Origin: Candidatus Polarisedimenticolia bacterium
GTDB taxonomy: Bacteria > Acidobacteriota > Polarisedimenticolia > Gp22-AA2
Reading direction: 5' to 3'
Assembly: GCA_035260145.1 (NCBI GenBank)
Contig: DATFVU010000082.1
Location: 1-25,807, forward strand
Length of the DNA: 25,807 nt
In this document: positions 603-9,940 of the stretch, piece by piece
Position numbering within the stretch: position 1 is the stretch's first letter
How the letters are laid out: each line of letters opens with the position of its first letter
Program-made: the position numbers and the translations under genes
The notes under the pieces: generated by a model
Database searches by the model: none
Told to the model about the DNA's origin: nothing
What the model saw: only the letters and a program-made list of their open reading frames with translations

Positions 603-1459
603 TCCGCCTTCTTCAGCTCGGCCATGACCTTCTTCATGTCGTCCCAGACCTCCCGCTTGGCGGCCGGATTGCGCAGCAGGTAGGCCGGGTGGAAGGTCGG
701 CATGACGCGGATGCCGTCGATCTCAAGGAACGTTCCCCGGAGCCGCGTGATCGTGTCGCGGGTGCCCAGGACGGTCTGCGTGGCGGGCGTGCCGAGGCAG
801 ACGATCACGCGCGGCCGTATCGCCTTGATCTGCTGGAACAGGAACGGCGAGCATGTCGCGATCTCGTCCGGCAGCGGGGTGCGATTCTCCGGAGGCCGGC
901 ACTTCACGACGTTCGCGATGTAGACCTCATGCCTCTCCATCCCCATCGATTCGATGATCTTCGTCAGGAGCTGCCCCGCCCGCCCCACGAACGGCTCGCC
1001 CTTCCGGTCCTCGTCGGCCCCGGGCCCCTCGCCGATGAACATCAGGCGGGCCTCGGGATTCCCGACGCCGAACACGACTTGGGTGCGCTGGCGGCACAGT
1101 CCGCAGCGGGTGCAGTCGCCGATGTCGTCCCTTATCAGCGCGAGCGCCTCCGCAGGGGGCGCCTCCGGAGCGCGGATCTCCGCGAGCGGCGACGCCGATC
1201 GCTCCCCTCCCCTGCCCCGGCGTCCGGCCATCGGAGAGCGCTGTGGCTCGACCTCTTCGACGCCTCCGAACAGACCCGCCTGTGCGGCGGACCGGCGCTC
1301 CTCGCCCCGCGGAGGAGGTTCTTCTTGAGATCGAGCCTCTCCGACCGCAGGGGGAGGGTCATCCGGCCGCGCGACGATGGGGAGGTCGTCCACTCCCAGG
1401 AGTTGCAGCCATTCGAGCCGCGCCCGCAGCGTCTGGCGATTGTCCCGAGCGGCCTTCAC
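599..1459 (-). CDS. Uracil-DNA glycosylase, family 4 (Fe-S cluster type), with a low-complexity N-terminal extension
   Basis: Motifs CTRCGLC, IGEGPGADED, FVGRAGQLL, NVVKCRPPENRTP, C..FL..QI and TFHPAYLLRNP. GTG start with a GGAGG-containing RBS, overlapping the coaB stop as GTGA. Confidence 0.95.
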   Translation of the reverse strand: MKAARDNRQTLRARLEWLQLLGVDDLPIVARPDDPPPAVGEARSQEEPPPRGEERRSAAQAGLFGGVEEVEPQRSPMAGRRGRGGERSASPLAEIRAPEAPPAEALALIRDDIGDCTRCGLCRQRTQVVFGVGNPEARLMFIGEGPGADEDRKGEPFVGRAGQLLTKIIESMGMERHEVYIANVVKCRPPENRTPLPDEIATCSPFLFQQIKAIRPRVIVCLGTPATQTVLGTRDTITRLRGTFLEIDGIRVMPTFHPAYLLRNPAAKREVWDDMKKVMAELKKAE

Positions 1460-2828
1460 GATCCTCCCTCCCGCGGCGCCGCGGCCCGCCGGCGCCTCCG
1501 TCCCGCGGCGCCGGCGAGAAAGGGTTCCGCCAGATCGAGAATCCTCGCCGCCATCGCCTCCTTGGTCATGATCGGAAGCTCGCTCCTGTTGCCGTCCCGA
1601 TCGATCGTGAGCGCGCGGTTGGTATCGGCCTCGAATCCCTCGCCTTTCCGGCCGATCCGATTCGCCACGATCAGGTCGAGATTCTTCCGGCGCAGCTTGC
1701 CGAGGGCGTTCGCTTCGAGATCGCCGGTCTCCGCCGCGAAGCCGACCAGGACCTGTCCCGGCTTCTTGCGCCGTCCGAGCTCCTCCAGGATGTCGGGCGT
1801 CGGCTGGAGTCGCAGGATGACGGCCCGATCCGGGCCCGGCCGCTTCAGAGCCGCTCGTCGCAGCGACTCTTTCTTGATCTTGCGGGACGACCGCTCCTCC
1901 GGACGGTAGTCCGCCACCGCCGCCGCCTTCAGGACGAGATCCGCGCCCGGTGCCTGGTTCAGAGCGGCGCGGAACATCTCGTCCGCCGTCGTGACGAGCA
2001 CCAGGTTCACTCCGGCCGGCGGTGCGAGGTGGGTCGGGCCGGAGAGCAGCGTGACTTCGGCGCCGCGCGCCAGCGCCTCGGCGGCCAGGGCGTATCCCAT
2101 CCTGCCGGTGGACGGATTGCTCAGGTAACGGGCCGGGTCGAGCGCCTCGCGCGTCGGACCGGCGGTTACGAGGACTCGGCGGCCCTCAAGCGACCGCGAA
2201 GTTTTTTTTTAGCGATCGAGAGGGCCGCGTTCACGATTTCTTCCGGCTCGGCCATCCGGCCGATCCCTTCGTCGCCGCAGGCGAGATCCCCCGTCCCGGG
2301 CTCGATGACGCTCACGCCGCGCGACTTCAGAACGGCGAGATTGGCCTGCGTGGCGGGATGCTCCCACATCCAGACGTTCATCGCGGGCGCCACGGCCACG
2401 GGGGCCGTCACGGCCAGGTAGAACGTGCTCAGGAAATCGTCGGCGATGCCGTGCGCGAGCTTGGCGAGGGTGTCGGCGGTCGCCGGGGCGACCAGGAACA
2501 GGTCCAGCCCCCGCGCCAGGGCGATGTGCTGCACGTCGGCGCCGTGCGACAGATCCCATTGACCGGTGATCACCGATTGGCCGCTGAGCGTCTGGAGAGT
2601 GAGCGGCGTGATGAACCGCCGTCCCCCCGGCGTCATGATGACGTGCACCTCGGCCCCGGCCTTGACGAGGCCGCGCACCACTTCCGCGGCCTTGTAGGCC
2701 GCGATCCCCCCGGTCACGCCCAGCGCGATGCGCGTTTTCGACGCTCCCTGACCGGACGCGGCGCCGTCTTGCCCGCCGGCCGGTGCCTTCCTATCGCGAT
2801 CGTCCGGCCCGTCAGCTTCCCGGCTCAC
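1456..2828 (-). CDS. coaBC: Bifunctional CoaBC (PPC decarboxylase/PPC synthetase), interrupted by a -1 frameshift at an A9 run (2202-2210)
   Basis: The CoaC half (2828-2166) has GVTGGIAAYKA, HIALAR, APATADTLAKLAHGIAD, PAMNVWMW and LACGDEGIGRM. The -1 frame after the A9 reads TSRSLEGRRVLVTAGPTREALDPARYLSNPSTGRMGYALA and continues into ORF 2100-1456 (AAVADY, KIKK, VGFAAET, KNLDLIVAN). The joined product would be about 457 aa from the GTG at 2828. Confidence 0.93.
2202..2210 (-). other. A9 homopolymer at the frame-transition site in coaBC (candidate slippery site)
   Basis: The minus strand reads GCT AAA AAA AAA CTT. The -1 frame is closed by TAA at the 5' edge of the run and the 0 frame stops 12 codons later at 2166-2168, so the transition is confined to this short interval. 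Confidence 0.8.
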
Positions 2829-3084
2829 GCTCGTCCATCCCCGCGCCGTCCGCGGGATAGGTCTCGGTCGTCACCTCGGCGACCTCCTCGACCGCGTACT
2901 CCTCGGGGAAGGGTCCATAGCTGTAAGGAATGGCGCCGGCGAGCACTTCCTGCATGGCGACGGTCACCGGTTTGTGGGCCGTCGTCTCGACGCGCGGCCG
3001 GGCGCCGCGCTGCAATTGCTTGCAGCGCTCCCCCGCCACGGAGATGAACTCGAACTTGTTTCCGATATTCTCGGTCGCGATCAT
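2812..3084 (-). CDS. rpoZ: DNA-directed RNA polymerase subunit omega
   Basis: NKFEFISVAGERCKQLQRGARPRV...HKPVTVAMQEVLAG matches the omega pattern. GGAGG RBS at 3093-3089; lies between gmk and coaBC. Confidence 0.93.
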   Translation of the reverse strand: MIATENIGNKFEFISVAGERCKQLQRGARPRVETTAHKPVTVAMQEVLAGAIPYSYGPFPEEYAVEEVAEVTTETYPADGAGMDEREPGS

Positions 3085-3088
3085 GGAA

Positions 3089-3124
3089 CCTCCGCAAGAG
3101 AGCCGGTCCAGGAGCGGTATTCTA
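3089..3124 (-). promoter_or_regulatory. Candidate -10 box (TAGAAT, 3124-3119) and RBS (GGAGG, 3093-3089) upstream of rpoZ
   Basis: AT-rich hexamer matching TAnnnT in the gmk-rpoZ intergenic region. No convincing -35 box. Confidence 0.4.
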
Positions 3125-3199
3125 GACGAAAAGGTGCTTCGGATCGAGCCGTCGGCCGAACGGGCCCGGGGCGGCCGGTCGCGGCGTCGGATGGACGGA

Positions 3200-3871
3200 C
3201 TAGGAGAGGCCGGCGAAGTCGCGCAGGATCGGGTCCAGGACCGCCCGCCTCAGCGCCGTCCGGCAGCGCGCCGCCAAAGCGATCGCGCGCAGCTGCCGGT
3301 AGGCGGCTTCGAAGTCGTCGTTGATGATCACGTAGTCATAGGCGGGACTCTTCTCGACTTCCCCACCGGCCAGTCCCAGTCTGCGGGCGACCTCCTGGGG
3401 CCCGTCCGTGCCGCGCTTCTGGAGACGTTCCTTCAGCGCCATCCTGCCGGGGGGCAGGATGAAGATCAGGATCGCCTCCGGGATCATCCGGTGGATGTTC
3501 AGGGCGCCCTGCGTGTCGATGTCGAGCAGGATGTCGCGGCCCCGGGCCGCGGCCTCCTGCACCGCCACGGCCGAGGTGCCGTAGAGATGCCCCCCCACCT
3601 CGGCCCACTCGATGAAATCCCCCCGATCGCGGCGGCGCTCGAAATCCGGGCGGTCGATGAAGTGGTAGTCCACTCCCTCCTTCTCGCCGGCGCGCGGGGC
3701 CCGGGTGGTGAACGAGACGGAAAACTCGATGCCCCGGTCCTCCTGGAGGAGTCGCTTGCAAAGCGTCGTCTTGCCCGCGCCCGAGGGCGCGGAGATCACC
3801 AGGACCGATCCGCGCGCCGACCCCGGCGCCCCGGGCGTCCCCGAGCCCGCCGTCATATCGACGTCCCGCAC
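3200..3871 (-). CDS. gmk: Guanylate kinase
   Basis: P-loop SAPSGAGKTT, SVSFTTRAPRAGEKEGVDYHF, EWAEVGGHLYGT, LLDIDTQGA and YDYVIINDD. The start could instead be ATG 3856. Confidence 0.97.
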   Translation of the reverse strand: MRDVDMTAGSGTPGAPGSARGSVLVISAPSGAGKTTLCKRLLQEDRGIEFSVSFTTRAPRAGEKEGVDYHFIDRPDFERRRDRGDFIEWAEVGGHLYGTSAVAVQEAAARGRDILLDIDTQGALNIHRMIPEAILIFILPPGRMALKERLQKRGTDGPQEVARRLGLAGGEVEKSPAYDYVIINDDFEAAYRQLRAIALAARCRTALRRAVLDPILRDFAGLS

Positions 3872-3913
3872 GCAACCCCAGTCAAGAGCTCCTCCCGGAC
3901 GATCGACCCGGCC

Positions 3914-4825
3914 TCACTCCAGGTTCTGCGCCTGCTCGCGAATCTTCTCCACCTCCGCCTTGATGACGAGGGCCTGCTGGCAGATCGGCAGCGCTTCCGC
4001 CTTGGACGAAATCGTGTTCGCCTCGCGGTTCATCTCCTGCATGATGAAATCGAGAGTCTTGCCGATGGGACCGCCCGGTCGGGCGAGCGTCTCCTCCATC
4101 TGCTTCAGGTAGCCCTGAAGCCGGACCAGCTCCTCCGTGATGTCGGCGCGCCCCGCCAGGAGGGCCACCTCCTGGGCCAGGCGACCCTCCTCGACGACCC
4201 GGCCGCCGTCGAGCAGGACCGCGAGCCGCTCCTTGATCCGGCGCGCGTACGACTCGGGAAGGCCGCGCGCCTCCGCCTCGATGCGCGAGGCGGCTTCGCG
4301 AATCGTGCGCAGGCGGTCGTTCAGATCCTCCACCAGGCGACGTCCTTCCGAGGCTCGCATGGTGTCGTAGGCGTCGAGCGCCGCCCGCATGGCCTCGGTC
4401 AGGACCGCCTCCACCACGCCGTCATCCGGCGCGGCGCCGGCCTGAATCGACACCACGCCCGGCAGGCCCAGGACCGTCTCCAGGCCGACGCTGCCCCTGA
4501 GGGCGAACTCCTTCTTGAGGGAGGCGGCACCTTTAAGATATTCGGCGACGAGACTCTCATTGACCACGACGCGTGCGGGGGACGGGAGCGACGAGACGAT
4601 CGCCGTGACGATGTCGATCCGGGCACGCGTTACCCGCGCCTGAATCAGGGCGCGGAGGCGCGGCTCCAGCAGGCCGACTTCGCCGGGGAGTCTCATCTTG
4701 ATATCCAGGAACCTGTGGTTGACCCCCTTCAGCTCGACTCGCGCCGCCACACCGTTGCGCTCCGCCGTCCCCTGCCCGAAGCCGGTCATGCTTTTCACCT
4801 GGACCCCATTCCGCTCGGATGACAT
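3914..4825 (-). CDS. yicC: YicC/YloC family endoribonuclease
   Basis: KSMTGFG...ELKGVNHRFLDI at the N-terminus; RADITEELVRL, GKTLDFIMQEMNREANTISSK and EKIREQAQNLE at the C-terminus. Conserved position upstream of gmk. The true start may be a few codons downstream. Confidence 0.93.
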   Translation of the reverse strand: MSSERNGVQVKSMTGFGQGTAERNGVAARVELKGVNHRFLDIKMRLPGEVGLLEPRLRALIQARVTRARIDIVTAIVSSLPSPARVVVNESLVAEYLKGAASLKKEFALRGSVGLETVLGLPGVVSIQAGAAPDDGVVEAVLTEAMRAALDAYDTMRASEGRRLVEDLNDRLRTIREAASRIEAEARGLPESYARRIKERLAVLLDGGRVVEEGRLAQEVALLAGRADITEELVRLQGYLKQMEETLARPGGPIGKTLDFIMQEMNREANTISSKAEALPICQQALVIKAEVEKIREQAQNLE

Positions 4826-4849
4826 CCGGTTCCGGCCCGCCTTCCCGCG

Positions 4850-6109
4850 TCAGGCGACGCGCGTGCGTTCGCGCGCGCCGATCATATCCCAGGCGCTGCG
4901 GGCGACCCTGTCGATAGCCCCCGGCGCGCCCAGTCTCGAGCGCACCCCCGAGAGATCGCGCCGCATCGTCGCGGCGACCGTCGGATCGGTCAGGATGCGT
5001 CGGAGCTCATGGGAGATCCTCTGCGGGGTGCACTCCCCCTGCACCAATTCCGGAACGATGCGCGATCCGGCGATCAGGTTCGGCATCCCCACGTGCGGCA
5101 CGTCCGAGATCAGACGGGCCAGCGCGAACGTCAGCGGGTTCATCCGATAGACGATGACCATCGGAACCTCCAGGAGCGCGGTCTCCAGCGTCGCCGTCCC
5201 CGAGGCGACCACGGCCGCGTCGCACGCCGCCACGGCGTCGTACCGGTCCTCGCCCAGAAGGACGCATCCGAGATCGGCTTTGCGATCGCCCGAGGCCTGC
5301 GCTTCCCGACGCTCTTCGCGCACGATGCCCTCGACCGCGTCCCTGGCCAGGGTCGGGGCGATCGGGATCAGGAACTGCAGATCGCGGAACTCCTCGCGCA
5401 GCCGCCGCGCCGCGGCCAGCATGATCGCCAGATGGGCGCGCAGCTCGTTCATCCGGCTGCCGGGCAGAAGGGCCACGGTCGGCCGGAGAGGATCGAGTCC
5501 GGCGGGCCTGAGCGTCTGCTCCCGGGTGCGGGTGGTCCGGACGAGGTCCAGGAGCGGGTGCCCCACGAATTCCACCGAAACGCCGGCCTTCCTGTACAAC
5601 TCCTCTTCGAACGGCAGGATGACGAGCATGCGGCGGACGACGGTCGCGATTCGCCGCACGCGCCCCTTGCGCCAGGCCCAGACCTGCGGGCTGACGAAAT
5701 AGAGGACCGGGACGCCTGCCCGCCGGGCCCTCTGCGCGAGCCGAATGTTGAAATCGGGGTAATCGATCAGCAGCGCCAGGTCGGGCCGCTCCTCCGAATC
5801 GATGAGCCCGCGGGCCTCGCGGTAGGCGTTCCAGATGGCGCGGGCGCTCCCGAGAACCTCGAGGAAACCGGTCACGCCGATGAGCCCCGCGTCGCCCAGC
5901 GGTCGAAGTCCTGCGGCGCGCATGGAGGGCCCGCCGATCCCGATGAACTGGACGCGACCGTCCCAGGCCTCGTTCTCGCCGCCGCCGGTGGCGTTCCTCG
6001 CCGCCTGGCGTTCCGCCTTCCCCTGCATCGCCCGCATGACCAGGCTGCCGTAGAGATCGCCGGAGGCCTCGCCCGCGACGATCAGCACGCGGGCGCATCG
6101 ACCGGTCAC
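4850..6109 (-). CDS. lpxB: Lipid-A-disaccharide synthase
   Basis: IVAGEASGDLYG, LIDYPDFNIRLA, YFVSPQVWAWRKGR, ILPFEEELY, FVGHPLLD, LLPGSR, ASGTATLE, GMPNLIAG and VPELVQ. GTG start with a GGAG RBS. Confidence 0.96.
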   Translation of the reverse strand: MTGRCARVLIVAGEASGDLYGSLVMRAMQGKAERQAARNATGGGENEAWDGRVQFIGIGGPSMRAAGLRPLGDAGLIGVTGFLEVLGSARAIWNAYREARGLIDSEERPDLALLIDYPDFNIRLAQRARRAGVPVLYFVSPQVWAWRKGRVRRIATVVRRMLVILPFEEELYRKAGVSVEFVGHPLLDLVRTTRTREQTLRPAGLDPLRPTVALLPGSRMNELRAHLAIMLAAARRLREEFRDLQFLIPIAPTLARDAVEGIVREERREAQASGDRKADLGCVLLGEDRYDAVAACDAAVVASGTATLETALLEVPMVIVYRMNPLTFALARLISDVPHVGMPNLIAGSRIVPELVQGECTPQRISHELRRILTDPTVAATMRRDLSGVRSRLGAPGAIDRVARSAWDMIGARERTRVA

Positions 6110-6812
6110 GGCGCGCTCCGGGGCGGTACCCCGGCGACGGCCGCATGACCATGGCCGTGTGACCGGGCCTCCGCCTCCTCGGTGAGGCGATCGAGGGCCT
6201 GCTGCAGGGCCTGGCGCTTCACCTCCATGCCCTGGCGGCCGGCGTCCGCCGGCACTTCGATCGGCTCACCGTAGGCGATGACCGCGCGCGCCAGCGGGAA
6301 CGGGATCTGGAACGCGTCCCAGGACCGAAGGTTTTTTTTTTAGAGGCCGCGAAGGCGACGGGCACGATGGGCGCGCGTCCCAGGCGGGCGGCTTCGATCA
6401 CTCCCATCTGCACCCGATGACGGGGACCGCGCGGCCCATCGGTGGCGAACGCGATGTCCCGGCCGCCCCGCACGTGGCGGATCATCTCCTTCAATCCCGC
6501 CACGCCTCCCCGTCCCGTCGAGCCCCGTACCATCTGATGCCCGAACTTCTCCAGCGTGCGCGAGACGTATTCCCCGTCCCGGTGAAGGCTGCTCAGGACG
6601 ACCAGCTTGCGGCCGTAGGCCTGCCCCAGATAGGAATAGGTCATCATCAAGAGTTGGTCGTGATAGAAGGCGTGCACGTAGGGTCGCTTCGCCTCATGCA
6701 GATCGAGGACGACGCGATCGCGGACGACGGTCCAGCGGAGCGTCCGGTGAAGGAAGCGCACCAGAGTGCTCGCCAGGATTGGTCCCAGCCAGAGTGAGAG
6801 TCGACCGCCCAG
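6106..6812 (-). CDS. DUF374 / LpxJ-like lipid acyltransferase, interrupted by a -1 frameshift at an A10 run (6332-6341)
   Basis: The 0 frame has YHDQLL, SLHRDGEY, VRGSTGRGG and TDGPRGPRH. After the A10 the -1 frame reads NLRSWDAFQIPFPLARAVIAYGEPIEVP...LQQALDRLTEEAE, the usual DUF374 C-terminus, and ends at TGA 6108-6106 overlapping the lpxB GTG. The start is proposed at CTG 6812 (the ORF track gives GTG 6761). The joined product would be about 235 aa. Confidence 0.85.
6332..6341 (-). other. A10 homopolymer at the frame-transition site in the DUF374 gene (candidate slippery site)
   Basis: The minus strand reads TCT AAA AAA AAA ACC. The -1 frame is closed by TAA at the 5' edge of the run, and the conserved SWD..IP.P motif begins a few codons later in the -1 frame. 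Confidence 0.8.
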
Positions 6813-8171: not shown

Positions 8172-9191
8172 ATGAGTTCTTCCTCACGCCGCGCGCGTCG
8201 ATCCGCGTCCCGCCGCCCACCCCGAATCCTCATCACAGGCGGCGCCGGGTTCATCGGCTCCCACCTTTGCGACTTCTTCCTGGCGAAGGGCTGCGAGGTG
8301 GTCTGCGTGGACAACCTCCTCACGGGAACCACCGACAACATCGCTCATATTCGCAACGTCCGGTTCAACTACATCCATCTCGACGTCACCAACTATATCT
8401 ACATCGATGGTCCGGTGGACTCGATCCTTCATTTCGCCAGCCCCGCGAGCCCCAGAGACTACCTTGAACTGCCCATTCAGACACTGAAGGTCGGCTCTCT
8501 CGGCACCCACAAGGCGCTCGGACTGGCGAAGGCCAAAGGAGCCAGATTTCTCCTGGCCTCCACATCCGAGGTCTACGGGGACCCGCTCATCCACCCGCAG
8601 AAGGAATCCTACTGGGGAAATGTCAATCCGGTCGGCCCGAGGGGCGTGTACGACGAGGCGAAGCGCTTCGCGGAGGCCCTCACCGTCGCCTATCGGACCT
8701 TTCACGGCGTCGACACGAAGATCGCGCGCATCTTCAACACGTACGGGCCGCGCATGCGGCTCAACGACGGGCGGGCGATCCCCGCGTTCATGTCCCAAAG
8801 TCTCACCGGAAAGCCGGTGACCGTGTTCGGCGACGGCAGCCAGACGCGATCGTTCTGCTACATCGATGACCTGGTGGATGGCATTTACCGGCTTCTGATG
8901 TCGTCCCACCACGGCCCCGTCAATCTGGGCAATCCGCGCGAGCTCTCCTTGCTCGAGATGGCGCAGAAGGTCATCCACCTCACGGGGTCCCGCAGCCGCA
9001 TCGTTCACCGTCCCCTTCCCGTCGACGACCCCAAAGTGCGCCAGCCCGATATCACCCTCGCCACAAAACATCTGGGATGGAGCCCCCGCGTGGGGCTCGA
9101 CCAGGGGCTGAAGCGCACGGTTCGTTATTTTCAGGAGCGCCTGCGCCCGTCGAAACGCCGCCGCTCGCCCGGCCGGTCCGGCCGATCGTAG
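8172..9191 (+). CDS. UDP-glucuronate decarboxylase (UDP-xylose synthase-like SDR)
   Basis: [69 protein letters not shown] and [20 protein letters not shown] at 8153-8159; alternative start ATG 8151. The only plus-strand gene in the window. Confidence 0.92.
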
Positions 9192-9208
9192 CGGGCTGCC
9201 TCGCTTTT
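9191..9208 (+). terminator. Weak candidate intrinsic terminator after the plus-strand decarboxylase
   Basis: GCGGG-CTGC-CTCGC, a 5-bp stem with one GU pair, followed by TTTT in the convergent gap. Confidence 0.2.
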
Positions 9209-9211
9209 CAG

Positions 9212-9940
9212 CTACGTCTTTCGGATGACGGCGAGCAGGTGGGACCGAAGAGGCGGGACCTTCTGCAAGGCGCGACAGGCCGCGTCCGACAGTCTCTCGA
9301 ACAGCCGCATCAACTGCGGGATTGGCGTGGTGCTTCGCACCTTGACGAGGGCCCCCGCGAACGCCCCGCGCAGCTCCGAGGCCGTCAGGGGGCGGGTGTT
9401 CCGGTTCCAGGGGTTGGGATAACGGGTGTCGTAGGAGAGGAACAGCCCTCCCGGAGCGAGAACGCGGTCCACCTCTCCGAGGATCCGTTTCCTCCAGCTG
9501 GCGTCGAGCACGCTGGAGATCATGGTCGACTGATAGACCAGGTCGAATGAACCGGCGCGGAACGGCAGCCGGGAGGCATCCGCCTGGATCGACGCGAGCC
9601 AGGCGTGCGAGGCCCGGGCCGCGCGCGCGAACTCGGGCAGCAGATCCACGGCGACGATCCGGTCGGCCCGGAATCCGAGACCTCGGAAACGTTCGCAGTC
9701 GGCCCCACCGCCCGCGCCCAGATCGAGCAGGCGGGCGGTCTCGACCCGTACCCCTTCCTCCCCGAGCACGCGGGTGATCTCCTGCCACTTGTGCTCGAGC
9801 TCGAAGCGCGCCGCCGCGCCCGACCAGATCCGTCTGTAGCGGGGATCGGAATCGTAACCGCGATAGACTGACTGAAGCCGCGCCTGCTCCGCCAGGCCTT
9901 CGCTCACGACGCCCGGCGAGGCCCTGCCATCCTGATCCAT
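9212..9940 (-). CDS. Class I SAM-dependent methyltransferase
   Basis: Motif I RLLDLGAGGG, followed by VAVDL, QADASRLPF...SFDLV and VLAPGGLFL. Confidence 0.88.
   Translation of the reverse strand: MDQDGRASPGVVSEGLAEQARLQSVYRGYDSDPRYRRIWSGAAARFELEHKWQEITRVLGEEGVRVETARLLDLGAGGGADCERFRGLGFRADRIVAVDLLPEFARAARASHAWLASIQADASRLPFRAGSFDLVYQSTMISSVLDASWRKRILGEVDRVLAPGGLFLSYDTRYPNPWNRNTRPLTASELRGAFAGALVKVRSTTPIPQLMRLFERLSDAACRALQKVPPLRSHLLAVIRKT

What the first reader, a model, noticed from the sequence alone, without database searches (positions are those of the whole stretch)
2179..6345. Two unrelated core genes 4 kb apart share one frameshift signature: a possible lineage-wide poly-A (poly-Lys) recoding system
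Seen in sequence: these are the only homopolymers of 8 nt or more that I found in 25.8 kb of GC-rich DNA, and both sit at frame breaks. Both read CT-A(9/10)-C, both encode KKK as AAA AAA AAA although Lys elsewhere appears to be mostly AAG, both have a TAA in the -1 frame at the run's 5' edge, both need the same -1 correction, and both have similar 3' flanks (A9-CTTCGCGGTC versus A10-CCTTCGGTC) followed by a short hairpin. A homopolymer sequencing error could explain the missing base but not why such runs exist against the codon bias at these spots; even if truly in frame (A10, A11) they would be slippage-prone. Inference: the organism may use a common A-run recoding device in CoA and lipid A acyl-transfer genes, two pathways linked through acyl carriers, possibly responsive to Lys-tRNA supply or to NTP levels during transcription.
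Basis: partly seen in the sequence, partly recalled or inferred. Interest (0 to 1): 0.88.

Follow-up and report, generated by a model that had tools for sequence, protein, structure and literature searches.

The report
Conserved poly-A slippage sites in coaBC and lpxJ
Two housekeeping genes of this soil acidobacterium (coenzyme A synthesis and lipid A acylation) are each one base out of frame at a run of nine or ten A's. The same break is kept in dozens of related species, so the full enzymes are almost certainly made by deliberate slippage at the run, most likely by RNA polymerase, and not lost to error or decay.

Summary
The window (longest contig of a 68% GC, 70%-complete Acidobacteriota MAG of the gp22/Polarisedimenticolia group) has only two homopolymers of 8 nt or more. 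These are A9 in coaBC (2202-2210, minus strand) and A10 in a DUF374/LpxJ-like gene (6332-6341). Both sit at mid-gene breaks that one extra A would repair.

This is not an artefact. G/C runs of 8-9 nt cause no mid-gene breaks. In 21 of 21 genomes of the same family, coaBC has the same run and the same -1 offset, while flanks diverge to 67-82% identity. The lpxJ break recurs in at least seven families of the phylum. In near-complete relatives these two are the only mid-gene A9+ runs.

The run is always 9 or more, its codon register varies, and no conserved RNA structure flanks it. One metatranscriptome contig shows A10 where DNA contigs show A9. Best reading: programmed transcriptional slippage, with -1 ribosomal frameshifting as the rival.

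A coordinated CoA/lipid A "system" is not supported. The two sites have very different phylogenetic spreads, and the shared flanks and hairpin are not conserved.

I found no paper on either case. This scan had already noted lpxJ recoding in Nitrospirota and coaBC recoding in Bacteroidales.

The parts
2202..2210 (-). A9 run (slippage site) at the CoaC/CoaB linker of coaBC
   Evidence: The same run is at the same place in 21/21 same-family genomes. DNA contigs keep 9; one RNA contig has 10.
2211..2828 (-). coaBC part 1, the CoaC (flavoprotein, PF02441) domain in the 0 frame. The GTG at 2828 is the longest start; the domain itself begins near 2735.
   Evidence: Pfam E 3.6e-35; tblastn frames.
2166..2168 (-). 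0-frame stop (TAA) reached 14 codons after the run by unshifted decoding. The product is CoaC alone with a short tail.
   Evidence: The stop is at the same position in all 21 relatives, made by GTR-ACN codons of the Val-Thr pair. GTR is used in 22/22 family members, against GTC in 4 of 7 outgroup genomes.
2186..2188 (-). Third-frame TGA, 8 codons after the run. It would end translation of mRNAs with +2 or -1 A.
   Evidence: present in 19/21 relatives through the rare Leu codon CTT (5.8% of Leu codons) followed by GAR.
1459..2201 (-). coaBC part 2, the CoaB (DFP, PF04127) domain in the -1 frame. It begins right at the run with the conserved LEGRRVLVTAGPT N-terminus. The stop is at 1456-1458, overlapping the start of the next gene (UDG family).
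   Evidence: The first in-frame ATG/GTG/TTG comes only after the nucleotide-binding motif. The joined protein P0002 matches TIGR00521 as one stretch and PDB chain 6tgv_A (CoaBC) end to end.
6332..6341 (-). A10 run (slippage site) in the DUF374/LpxJ-like gene. It is A9 followed by C in sister strains.
   Evidence: (6332 T>G in other contigs).
6342..6761 (-). lpxJ-like part 1 (0 frame), holding the DUF374 domain and the AFYH, HRDGE and TDGPRGP motifs
   Evidence: Pfam PF04028 E 4.1e-26; motifs read from the translation and compared.
6219..6221 (-). 0-frame stop of the unshifted lpxJ product, after a 40-codon nonsense tail
   Evidence: Its position is not conserved among relatives (4-53 codons after the run).
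6109..6331 (-). lpxJ-like part 2 (-1 frame). It starts with LRSWDAFQIPFP, whose Trp-Asp pair matches the essential W172/D173 of Rickettsia typhi LpxJ. Its TGA at 6106-6108 overlaps the lpxB GTG start (GTGA).
4850..6109 (-). lpxB (lipid-A-disaccharide synthase), context. Its start overlaps the stop of the shifted lpxJ frame.
   Evidence: Pfam PF02684 E 2.3e-92.

Best explanation
Both A runs are programmed recoding sites. The DNA is genuinely one base short of being in frame.

Mechanism (inferred): while copying the T9/T10 template, RNA polymerase slips in a fraction of transcripts and adds one untemplated A (programmed transcriptional realignment). Ordinary translation of those mRNAs then gives full-length CoaBC and full-length LpxJ-like acyltransferase.

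Unslipped mRNAs give two other products. One is a stand-alone CoaC domain with a 14-residue tail. The other is a truncated LpxJ that lacks the essential Trp-Asp motif and is presumably inactive. So each gene's output of active enzyme is set by the slippage frequency. coaBC yields two products from one gene.

Shown here: the breaks, their conservation, purifying selection on the downstream frame from the run onward, the 9-nt minimum, and the lack of any other conserved signal.

Inferred: that the slip occurs at transcription, and any regulatory purpose.
For: 1. Not an assembly error. Among the 50 G/C runs of 8-9 nt, none of those with clear coding signal on both sides lies at a mid-gene frame break. 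The three flagged are ordinary gene junctions. An in-frame A10 is assembled normally in another acidobacterium.

2. coaBC conservation. All 21 same-family genomes (about 16 genera, many studies and assemblers) have A9 at the CoaC/CoaB junction; one has A10 by substitution. CoaC is always -1 relative to CoaB. Seven outgroup genomes have no run and a single frame.

3. lpxJ conservation. The same design occurs in families f1, f2, f8 and f12 of the class and in f22, f37 and f48 elsewhere in the phylum, with runs of A9 to A11 that all need +1 A.

4. The productive product matches in-frame orthologs in length. S-KKK-TLRSWD aligns with S-RAW-TLRSWD. The joined CoaBC scores 439 bits on TIGR00521 in one stretch.

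5. In near-complete relatives (G003, G008, G004, G011, G017, G025, G026) every other A9+ run is a terminator or lies at a gene end.

6. Points favouring the polymerase:
- The run is never shorter than 9 in about 55 sites checked for frame, although a ribosomal heptamer needs only 7.
- The codon register of the run varies (0 or 2) while its length is kept.
- There is no conserved structure or covariation on either side.
- In coaBC, stops lie close by in both non-productive frames and are kept by unusual synonymous codons, as summarised for Thermus dnaX (PMC5009743).
- One metatranscriptome contig (X21, 96% identical, depth 3.3) carries one extra base in the run. DNA contigs at depth 16 and 20 do not.

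7. Published reporter data give about 40% shifted product at 9 A's, against 10% at 7 and 63% at 11 (PMC3711429).
Against: - No matched DNA and RNA from one sample. The single RNA contig is shallow, comes from a related strain whose DNA I cannot see, and could reflect reverse-transcriptase or PCR slippage.
- An A9 run contains A_AAA_AAA in every register, so -1 ribosomal frameshifting gives the same protein and may contribute.
- Near stops in the non-productive frames are conserved for coaBC only, not for lpxJ.
- No protein evidence for either full-length product.
- All genomes are MAGs of uncultured bacteria.
Confidence: 0.72

Rival explanations
1. Programmed -1 ribosomal frameshifting. Ribosomes slip back one base on A_AAA_AAA within the run with tRNA-Lys(UUU), and the mRNA has the templated length.
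For: A perfect slippery heptamer is available in any register. The product is identical to the +1 A product. All sites need -1, the usual direction for such heptamers. A-rich heptamers are the commonest bacterial frameshift motifs (PMC3711429).
Against: - No conserved downstream hairpin or pseudoknot, and no upstream Shine-Dalgarno-like stimulator.
- All 9 A's are kept in a 68% GC background although 7 would do, and the extra A's fall on different sides of the heptamer in different lineages.
- A third-frame stop is conserved in coaBC.
- One RNA contig has an extra A.
Confidence: 0.18
2. Sequencing or assembly artefact. The true DNA has one more A and the genes are ordinary.
For: The genome is a fragmented MAG, and homopolymers are classic error sites.
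Against: - The same break appears in more than 50 independent assemblies from different pipelines, at A9, A10 and A11 alike.
- G/C runs of 8-9 nt are clean.
- In-frame A10 is assembled elsewhere.
- Logan DNA contigs of two runs give 9, while an RNA contig built by the same pipeline gives 10.
- A 5.8-billion-protein collection returned only split halves of this family's CoaBC among its best matches.
Confidence: 0.03
3. Decay or ON/OFF switching. The genes are pseudogenes or phase-variable contingency loci switched by replication slippage.
For: Homopolymers mutate fast, and lpxJ affects the cell surface, a typical target of phase variation.
Against: - The downstream frames are 70-85% identical at protein level across genera, starting right at the run.
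- coaBC is the only CoaB/CoaC copy found with this query, including in 99-100% complete relatives.
- Every run-bearing genome is in the 'OFF' frame. None is 'ON' with a run, the opposite of a switching population.
Confidence: 0.04
4. Split genes. CoaB and the LpxJ C-terminal part are started independently as separate proteins.
For: Gene callers predict a CoaB half starting at the Val of VTAGPT (P0004). Separate coaB and coaC genes exist in some organisms (background knowledge).
Against: - No ATG/GTG/TTG lies between the run and the conserved LEGRRVLV segment, which is nevertheless conserved as protein. In the window the Val codon is GTA, not a start codon.
- The 75-residue LpxJ tail carries part of the active site and cannot be a separate enzyme.
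Confidence: 0.03

Closest known systems
Thermus thermophilus dnaX (transcriptional slippage at A9; as summarised in PMC1088944 and PMC5009743)
   Same: A cellular, non-mobile gene in a GC-rich bacterium. It has an A9 run with no other stimulator, nearby stops in the other frames, and gives two products from one gene.
   Different: In Thermus the templated mRNA gives the long product (tau) and slippage gives the short one (gamma). Here the polarity is reversed and slippage is needed for the long, complete enzyme.
Shigella flexneri mxiE and IS-element transposases (two overlapping ORFs fused by one untemplated base; PMC1088944)
   Same: Two ORFs offset by one base are joined at a 9-nt run, and slippage is required for the functional long protein. 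This meets Baranov's criterion of conserved ORF layout plus conserved run.
   Different: Those are a virulence-plasmid regulator and mobile elements with narrow distribution. Here the genes are core metabolic and envelope genes, conserved across families.
Two-ORF dnaX genes with A10 and other poly-A frameshift clusters from GeneTack (Antonov et al. 2013, PMC3711429)
   Same: Conserved poly-A frame transitions in housekeeping genes across genera, with efficiency rising with run length (7 A's 10%, 9 A's 40%, 11 A's 63%).
   Different: A term search of that paper found no 'pantothen' and no 'DUF374'. Its 1106 genomes date from 2013 or earlier, before the MAGs examined here were deposited.
Conserved poly(A) frameshifts rescued by polymerase slippage in Buchnera and Blochmannia (cited in PMC5009743)
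   Same: Housekeeping genes are kept out of frame at poly(A) tracts over long evolutionary times.
   Different: Those are AT-rich, drift-dominated endosymbionts with many long A tracts. These are free-living soil bacteria at 68% GC in which the two sites are the only mid-gene A9+ runs, which points to selection.
E. coli dnaX -1 ribosomal frameshift (A_AAA_AAG with Shine-Dalgarno-like element and hairpin)
   Same: A -1 shift on Lys codons that yields two products.
   Different: It needs flanking stimulators and only 7 slippery bases. Neither holds here.

Membership tests
Programmed transcriptional realignment (slippage) at an A/T homopolymer | Uninterrupted A or T run of about 8-9 nt or more exactly at the frame junction | tested here: met
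   A9 and A10 in the window. A9 to A11 at every related site, never shorter.
Programmed transcriptional realignment (slippage) at an A/T homopolymer | ORF layout and run conserved in non-identical homologs (criterion of PMC1088944) | tested here: met
   21/21 coaBC sites. 33 lpxJ sites checked for frame, in seven families.
Programmed transcriptional realignment (slippage) at an A/T homopolymer | Fused product homologous to single-ORF proteins elsewhere | tested here: met
   TIGR00521 at 439 bits in one stretch; PDB chain 6tgv_A aligned end to end. In-frame lpxJ orthologs have equal length.
Programmed transcriptional realignment (slippage) at an A/T homopolymer | mRNA population with untemplated extra A's while the DNA is uniform | tested here: inconclusive
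   One RNA contig with +1 (depth 3.3, related strain) against 0 in DNA contigs at depth 16 and 20. There was no RNA cover of the lpxJ site.
-1 programmed ribosomal frameshifting | X_XXY_YYZ heptamer in the 0 frame | tested here: met
   A_AAA_AAA is available in both registers seen.
-1 programmed ribosomal frameshifting | Conserved stimulator (downstream structure 5-9 nt away, or upstream Shine-Dalgarno-like element) | tested here: not met
   Consensus folds of -6.3 and -4.3 kcal/mol with no compensatory pair. z-scores near 0.
CoaBC (TIGR00521, bifunctional PPC decarboxylase / PPC synthetase) | Both domains present in order, above the equivalog cut-off | tested here: met
   Read through the run: 439.4 bits against a cut-off of 219.7, profile positions 5-389 of 392.
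LpxJ / DUF374 lipid A late acyltransferase | PF04028 domain plus counterparts of the residues essential in R. typhi LpxJ (H61, D86, D132, W172, D173) | tested here: met
   PF04028 E 4.1e-26. AFYH, HRDGE, TDGPRGP and SWD are all present in P0001, compared by eye. W60 is Tyr here. The gene lies next to lpxB.
LpxJ / DUF374 lipid A late acyltransferase | 3' secondary acylation activity on lipid A precursors | not testable with these tools
   Needs complementation of an E. coli lpxM mutant, as in PMC6148475.
Phase-variable contingency locus | Both in-frame and out-of-frame run lengths found among strains or species | tested here: not met
   Every run-bearing genome is out of frame by the same step. 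In-frame relatives have no run.

The most novel reading that the evidence does not exclude
Slippage-dependent decoding is not just tolerated but used as a tuner. In coaBC it would fix a CoaC : CoaBC ratio for a mixed oligomer. In both genes the yield of active enzyme would track the polymerase's dwell time at the end of the run, and so nucleotide pools or growth rate. That would couple CoA supply and lipid A acylation to the cell's physiological state. A lineage whose RNA polymerase is unusually slippage-prone would explain why two core genes carry the device and why all other mid-gene A9 runs are purged.
Probability: 0.12. Interest if true: 0.85.

Novelty: new member of a known kind. Interest (0 to 1): 0.62.

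Why it matters
- Annotation. Pipelines call both genes frameshifted pseudogenes or split ORFs. Metabolic reconstructions of these abundant, uncultured soil Acidobacteriota would then wrongly lack CoA synthesis (CoaB) and the lipid A late acyltransferase.
- Rarity. Conserved slippage sites in non-mobile cellular genes are few; dnaX and mxiE are the textbook cases. An essential metabolic gene and an envelope gene kept out of frame across families of free-living, GC-rich bacteria are clean new examples.
- A built-in contrast. Lineages either keep 'run plus frameshift' or have 'no run, in frame'. The intermediate 'run, in frame' was seen only once, in a 33% GC genome.
- This makes the question of why selection would prefer a slippage-dependent gene directly testable.

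Tried and rejected
- Other runs in the genome. A9 on contig C202 lies in frame near the 3' end of a Mu-like portal gene. The A7 runs on C70 and C10 are ordinary gene junctions. The three G/C runs flagged by my codon-score scan are also gene junctions.
- RNA search. The first search listed no RNA holder. The second found two metatranscriptomes with small shares. X22 did not cover either site and X21 did not cover the lpxJ site.
- Signals around the runs. No Rfam family anywhere in the window. No promoter-like or terminator-like site at the runs. No conserved structure.
- P0003 looked like an in-frame close relative, but its contig lacks the whole linker and the run.
- Some pattern hits have no LpxJ or CoaBC homology and are chance or terminators: G293 and G362 in the lpxJ scan, G415 in the coaBC scan. 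G093 looks the same by its sequence but was not checked.
- tRNA-Lys(UUU) was not found in this 70%-complete MAG, only CUU. No inference drawn.
- The TAA at the run's 5' edge and the CT...C context are by-products of a preceding T. They are not conserved.
- I could not test the earlier notes on Nitrospirota or Bacteroidales, because no handle on those genomes was available.
- Structure prediction and complex prediction were not attempted, as they were not needed for the claim.


Full report
**What is in the window.** The window is the longest contig (C82) of a 2.49 Mb, 385-contig, 68% GC genome rated 70% complete. Titles of related records name Acidobacteria 'gp22' and Candidatus Polarisedimenticolia MAGs from soil. 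The best-matching public runs are soil metagenomes.

A string of minus-strand genes, in order of transcription, reads: PMT_2-family glycosyltransferase, DUF374 gene, lpxB, yicC, gmk, rpoZ, coaBC, UDG-family gene, priA.

On the minus strand, an A9 run lies at 2202-2210 and an A10 run at 6332-6341.

**The observation.**
- These are the only homopolymers of 8 nt or more in the window. They are two of three A/T runs of 9 nt or more in the genome. A simple base-composition model expects 0.26 per genome and 0.003 per window.
- At the first run, the CoaC flavoprotein domain (PF02441) ends in one frame and the CoaB/DFP domain (PF04127) continues in the -1 frame.
- At the second run, the DUF374 domain is followed in the -1 frame by LRSWDAFQIPFP….
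- Both breaks are repaired by one extra A.
- AAA is 11.9% of Lys codons. Of 33 KKK tripeptides in long ORFs, only one is AAA AAA AAA.
- The shared CT…C context and the TAA at the 5' edge are there, but they are by-products of a preceding T and are not conserved.
- The claimed hairpins fold no better than shuffled sequence.

**Artefact?** I called the coding frame on both sides of every homopolymer of 5 nt or more with a codon-usage score.
- G/C runs show the same rate of frame change as random sites, about 4-5%, and these are gene junctions.
- For G/C runs of 8 nt or more, 17 are in frame. The 3 flagged cases are ordinary gene junctions, for example a histidine kinase stop followed by a response-regulator start.
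- So this assembly is not prone to homopolymer errors.
- The other A/T runs of 7 nt or more are intergenic, lie at gene ends, or are in frame.

**Relatives: coaBC.** In the same family (f1), 22 of 24 other genomes had a CoaB match, and 20 of the recovered loci span the junction.
- With the window, that makes 21 of 21 junctions with an A9 run at the same place. One has A10 by a C-to-A substitution.
- In every one, CoaC is offset by -1 from CoaB. Protein identity to the window falls to 67-82% and the flanking DNA varies freely.
- Seven genomes from other families of the order and class have no run and a single frame.
- A pattern scan of 401 genomes across the phylum found the site in f1 only. 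The one other hit is a 33% GC genome with an in-frame A10 at the same linker. That hit also shows that A10 runs assemble correctly.
- In a 5.8-billion-protein collection, the close relatives among the best matches are split halves (89% identity, starting at VTAGPT). The only full-length one (68%) lacks the linker and the run altogether.

**Relatives: lpxJ (DUF374).**
- The run and the -1 break occur in 15 of 18 f1 relatives' loci examined, in 4 of 4 f2 loci checked for frame (the motif was found in all 5 f2 genomes), and in f8 and f12.
- They also occur in three more families elsewhere in the phylum (f22, f37, f48). There the proteins are only 37-48% identical to the window's, and the runs are A9, A10 or A11. 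Twelve of twelve LpxJ-homologous loci checked have the -1 offset.
- In a gene tree, the in-frame, run-less f1 members (G017, and G001 with G006) nest inside the run-bearing clade. This implies at least two losses.
- G006 and G017 carry the coaBC site and the run-less lpxJ on one contig, so the two sites are lost independently.
- In the run-less genes the site reads S-R-x-x-T/R-L/F-R-S-W-D. That is exactly as long as the +1 A product S-KKK-T-L-R-S-W-D. In G006 the Thr codon ACC lines up with the 'tenth A' plus CC of its sisters. So the productive reading is +1 A (or -1 by the ribosome), not -2.

**How special the runs are.** In near-complete relatives I listed all A9 runs. G003 and G008 have only these two sites. 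G004, G011, G017, G025 and G026 add only terminator-like T9 tails after hairpins, or runs at gene ends. These lineages therefore tolerate mid-gene A9 runs in these two genes only.

**What the products are.**
- Read through the run, coaBC gives a 425-residue protein (P0002). It matches the CoaBC equivalog TIGR00521 in one stretch (439 bits, positions 5-389 of 392) and aligns end to end with PDB chain 6tgv_A, a solved CoaBC. The Lys residues fall in the inter-domain linker.
- No start codon lies between the run and the conserved LEGRRVLVTAGPT segment. The sole CoaB found with this query therefore cannot be made intact without the shift.
- Unshifted decoding ends 14 codons after the run and gives a complete CoaC domain.
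- For lpxJ, the joined protein (P0001) carries counterparts of the residues shown to be essential in Rickettsia typhi LpxJ. The Trp-Asp pair (W172/D173) lies five residues after the run, so the unshifted product lacks it (PMC6148475).
- The shifted frame ends in a GTGA overlap with the lpxB start. Ribosomes in the productive frame, and only those, stop at the start of lpxB. Coupling of lpxB translation to the shift is an inference from this.

Both routes give the same protein. Six points favour RNA polymerase.
1. The run is 9 or longer at every site checked, although a ribosomal heptamer needs 7 and GC pressure should erode spare A's.
2. The run starts at codon position 1 in some lineages and position 3 in others, while its length is kept.
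3. No conserved structure, covariation or Shine-Dalgarno-like element flanks either site.
4. In coaBC both non-productive frames close quickly, and unusual synonymous choices keep them closed. Val is GTR in 22 of 22 family members, against GTC in 4 of 7 outgroup genomes. The rare Leu codon CTT (5.8% of Leu codons) makes a third-frame TGA in 19 of 21. A third-frame stop matters only if mRNAs occur in all three phases, as described for Thermus dnaX. This does not hold for lpxJ.
5. One soil metatranscriptome contig (96% identical, depth 3.3) has one extra base in the coaBC run. DNA contigs from two runs (depth 16 and 20) have none. This is a hint only: the contig is shallow, comes from another strain, and reverse-transcriptase slippage is possible.
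6. Nine A's match the published threshold for efficient slippage. Reporter data give about 40% shifted product at nine A's.

I put transcriptional slippage at about 0.7 and ribosomal frameshifting as the main route at about 0.2.

**Why keep it?** A +1 insertion in an A9 run is a frequent mutation, yet no run-bearing GC-rich genome is in frame. In-frame relatives have lost the run. The data fit two stable states: 'run plus frameshift', and 'in frame without a run'. That argues for selection and not mere tolerance, but the benefit is unknown. Possibilities are a set CoaC : CoaBC ratio, low fixed expression, or a physiological tuner.

The common device is real. However, the two sites differ greatly in spread and are lost independently, and the flank and hairpin similarity is not conserved. 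I see two independent uses of one known mechanism, not a regulon.

**Known or new.**
- Programmed slippage at A/T runs is well known: Thermus dnaX, Shigella mxiE, IS elements, endosymbiont rescue, and the GeneTack clusters.
- Searches of the open literature found nothing that links coaBC, phosphopantothenoylcysteine, LpxJ/DUF374 or Acidobacteria with recoding.
- Earlier notes of this scan report the lpxJ site in Nitrospirota and a coaBC A-run in Bacteroidales and two other genomes. I confirmed the wide spread of the lpxJ site within Acidobacteriota but could not test the other phyla.

Noticed in passing
G000 contig C202 (L072) 2442-2450: The genome's third A9 run lies in frame about 65 nt before the stop of a Mu-like portal gene (PF06074), inside a 7-bp inverted repeat (GGCTGGC … GCCAGCC). 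The alternative frame after it has weak coding signal.
   Followed up: partly
L002 (G008:C40) 922-1390: In the closest species, the CoaC part matches in two pieces in different frames, with residues 106-154 of the window's CoaC missing. This is a roughly 150-nt deletion or a misassembly inside the flavoprotein domain, separate from the A9 site.
   Followed up: no
L112 1622-1660 (JGI contig, protein P0003): A family-level relative of coaBC (68% identity) is in frame because the whole linker, including the A run and the first beta strand of CoaB (about 19 codons), is missing. It may be a real deletion variant or a collapsed assembly.
   Followed up: partly
L113 (G161:C6) 1501-1510: A 33% GC acidobacterium has an in-frame A10 (FF-KKK-T-LKGEKFLITAGPT) at the same CoaC/CoaB linker position. 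The linker seems prone to Lys/A runs, which may be how the frameshifted state arises.
   Followed up: partly
G040:C6 about 683416-683520: A poly-A tract of more than 100 nt in a same-class genome. Probably an assembly or read artefact.
   Followed up: no
window 6106-6109 and 1456-1459: Both recoded genes end in a 4-nt GTGA overlap with the next gene (lpxB and the UDG-family gene). Downstream translation may therefore depend partly on the shifted frame being read.
   Followed up: partly
window 8184-9788 (minus strand): A 534-residue ORF upstream of the PMT_2 glycosyltransferase has no Pfam match.
   Followed up: no
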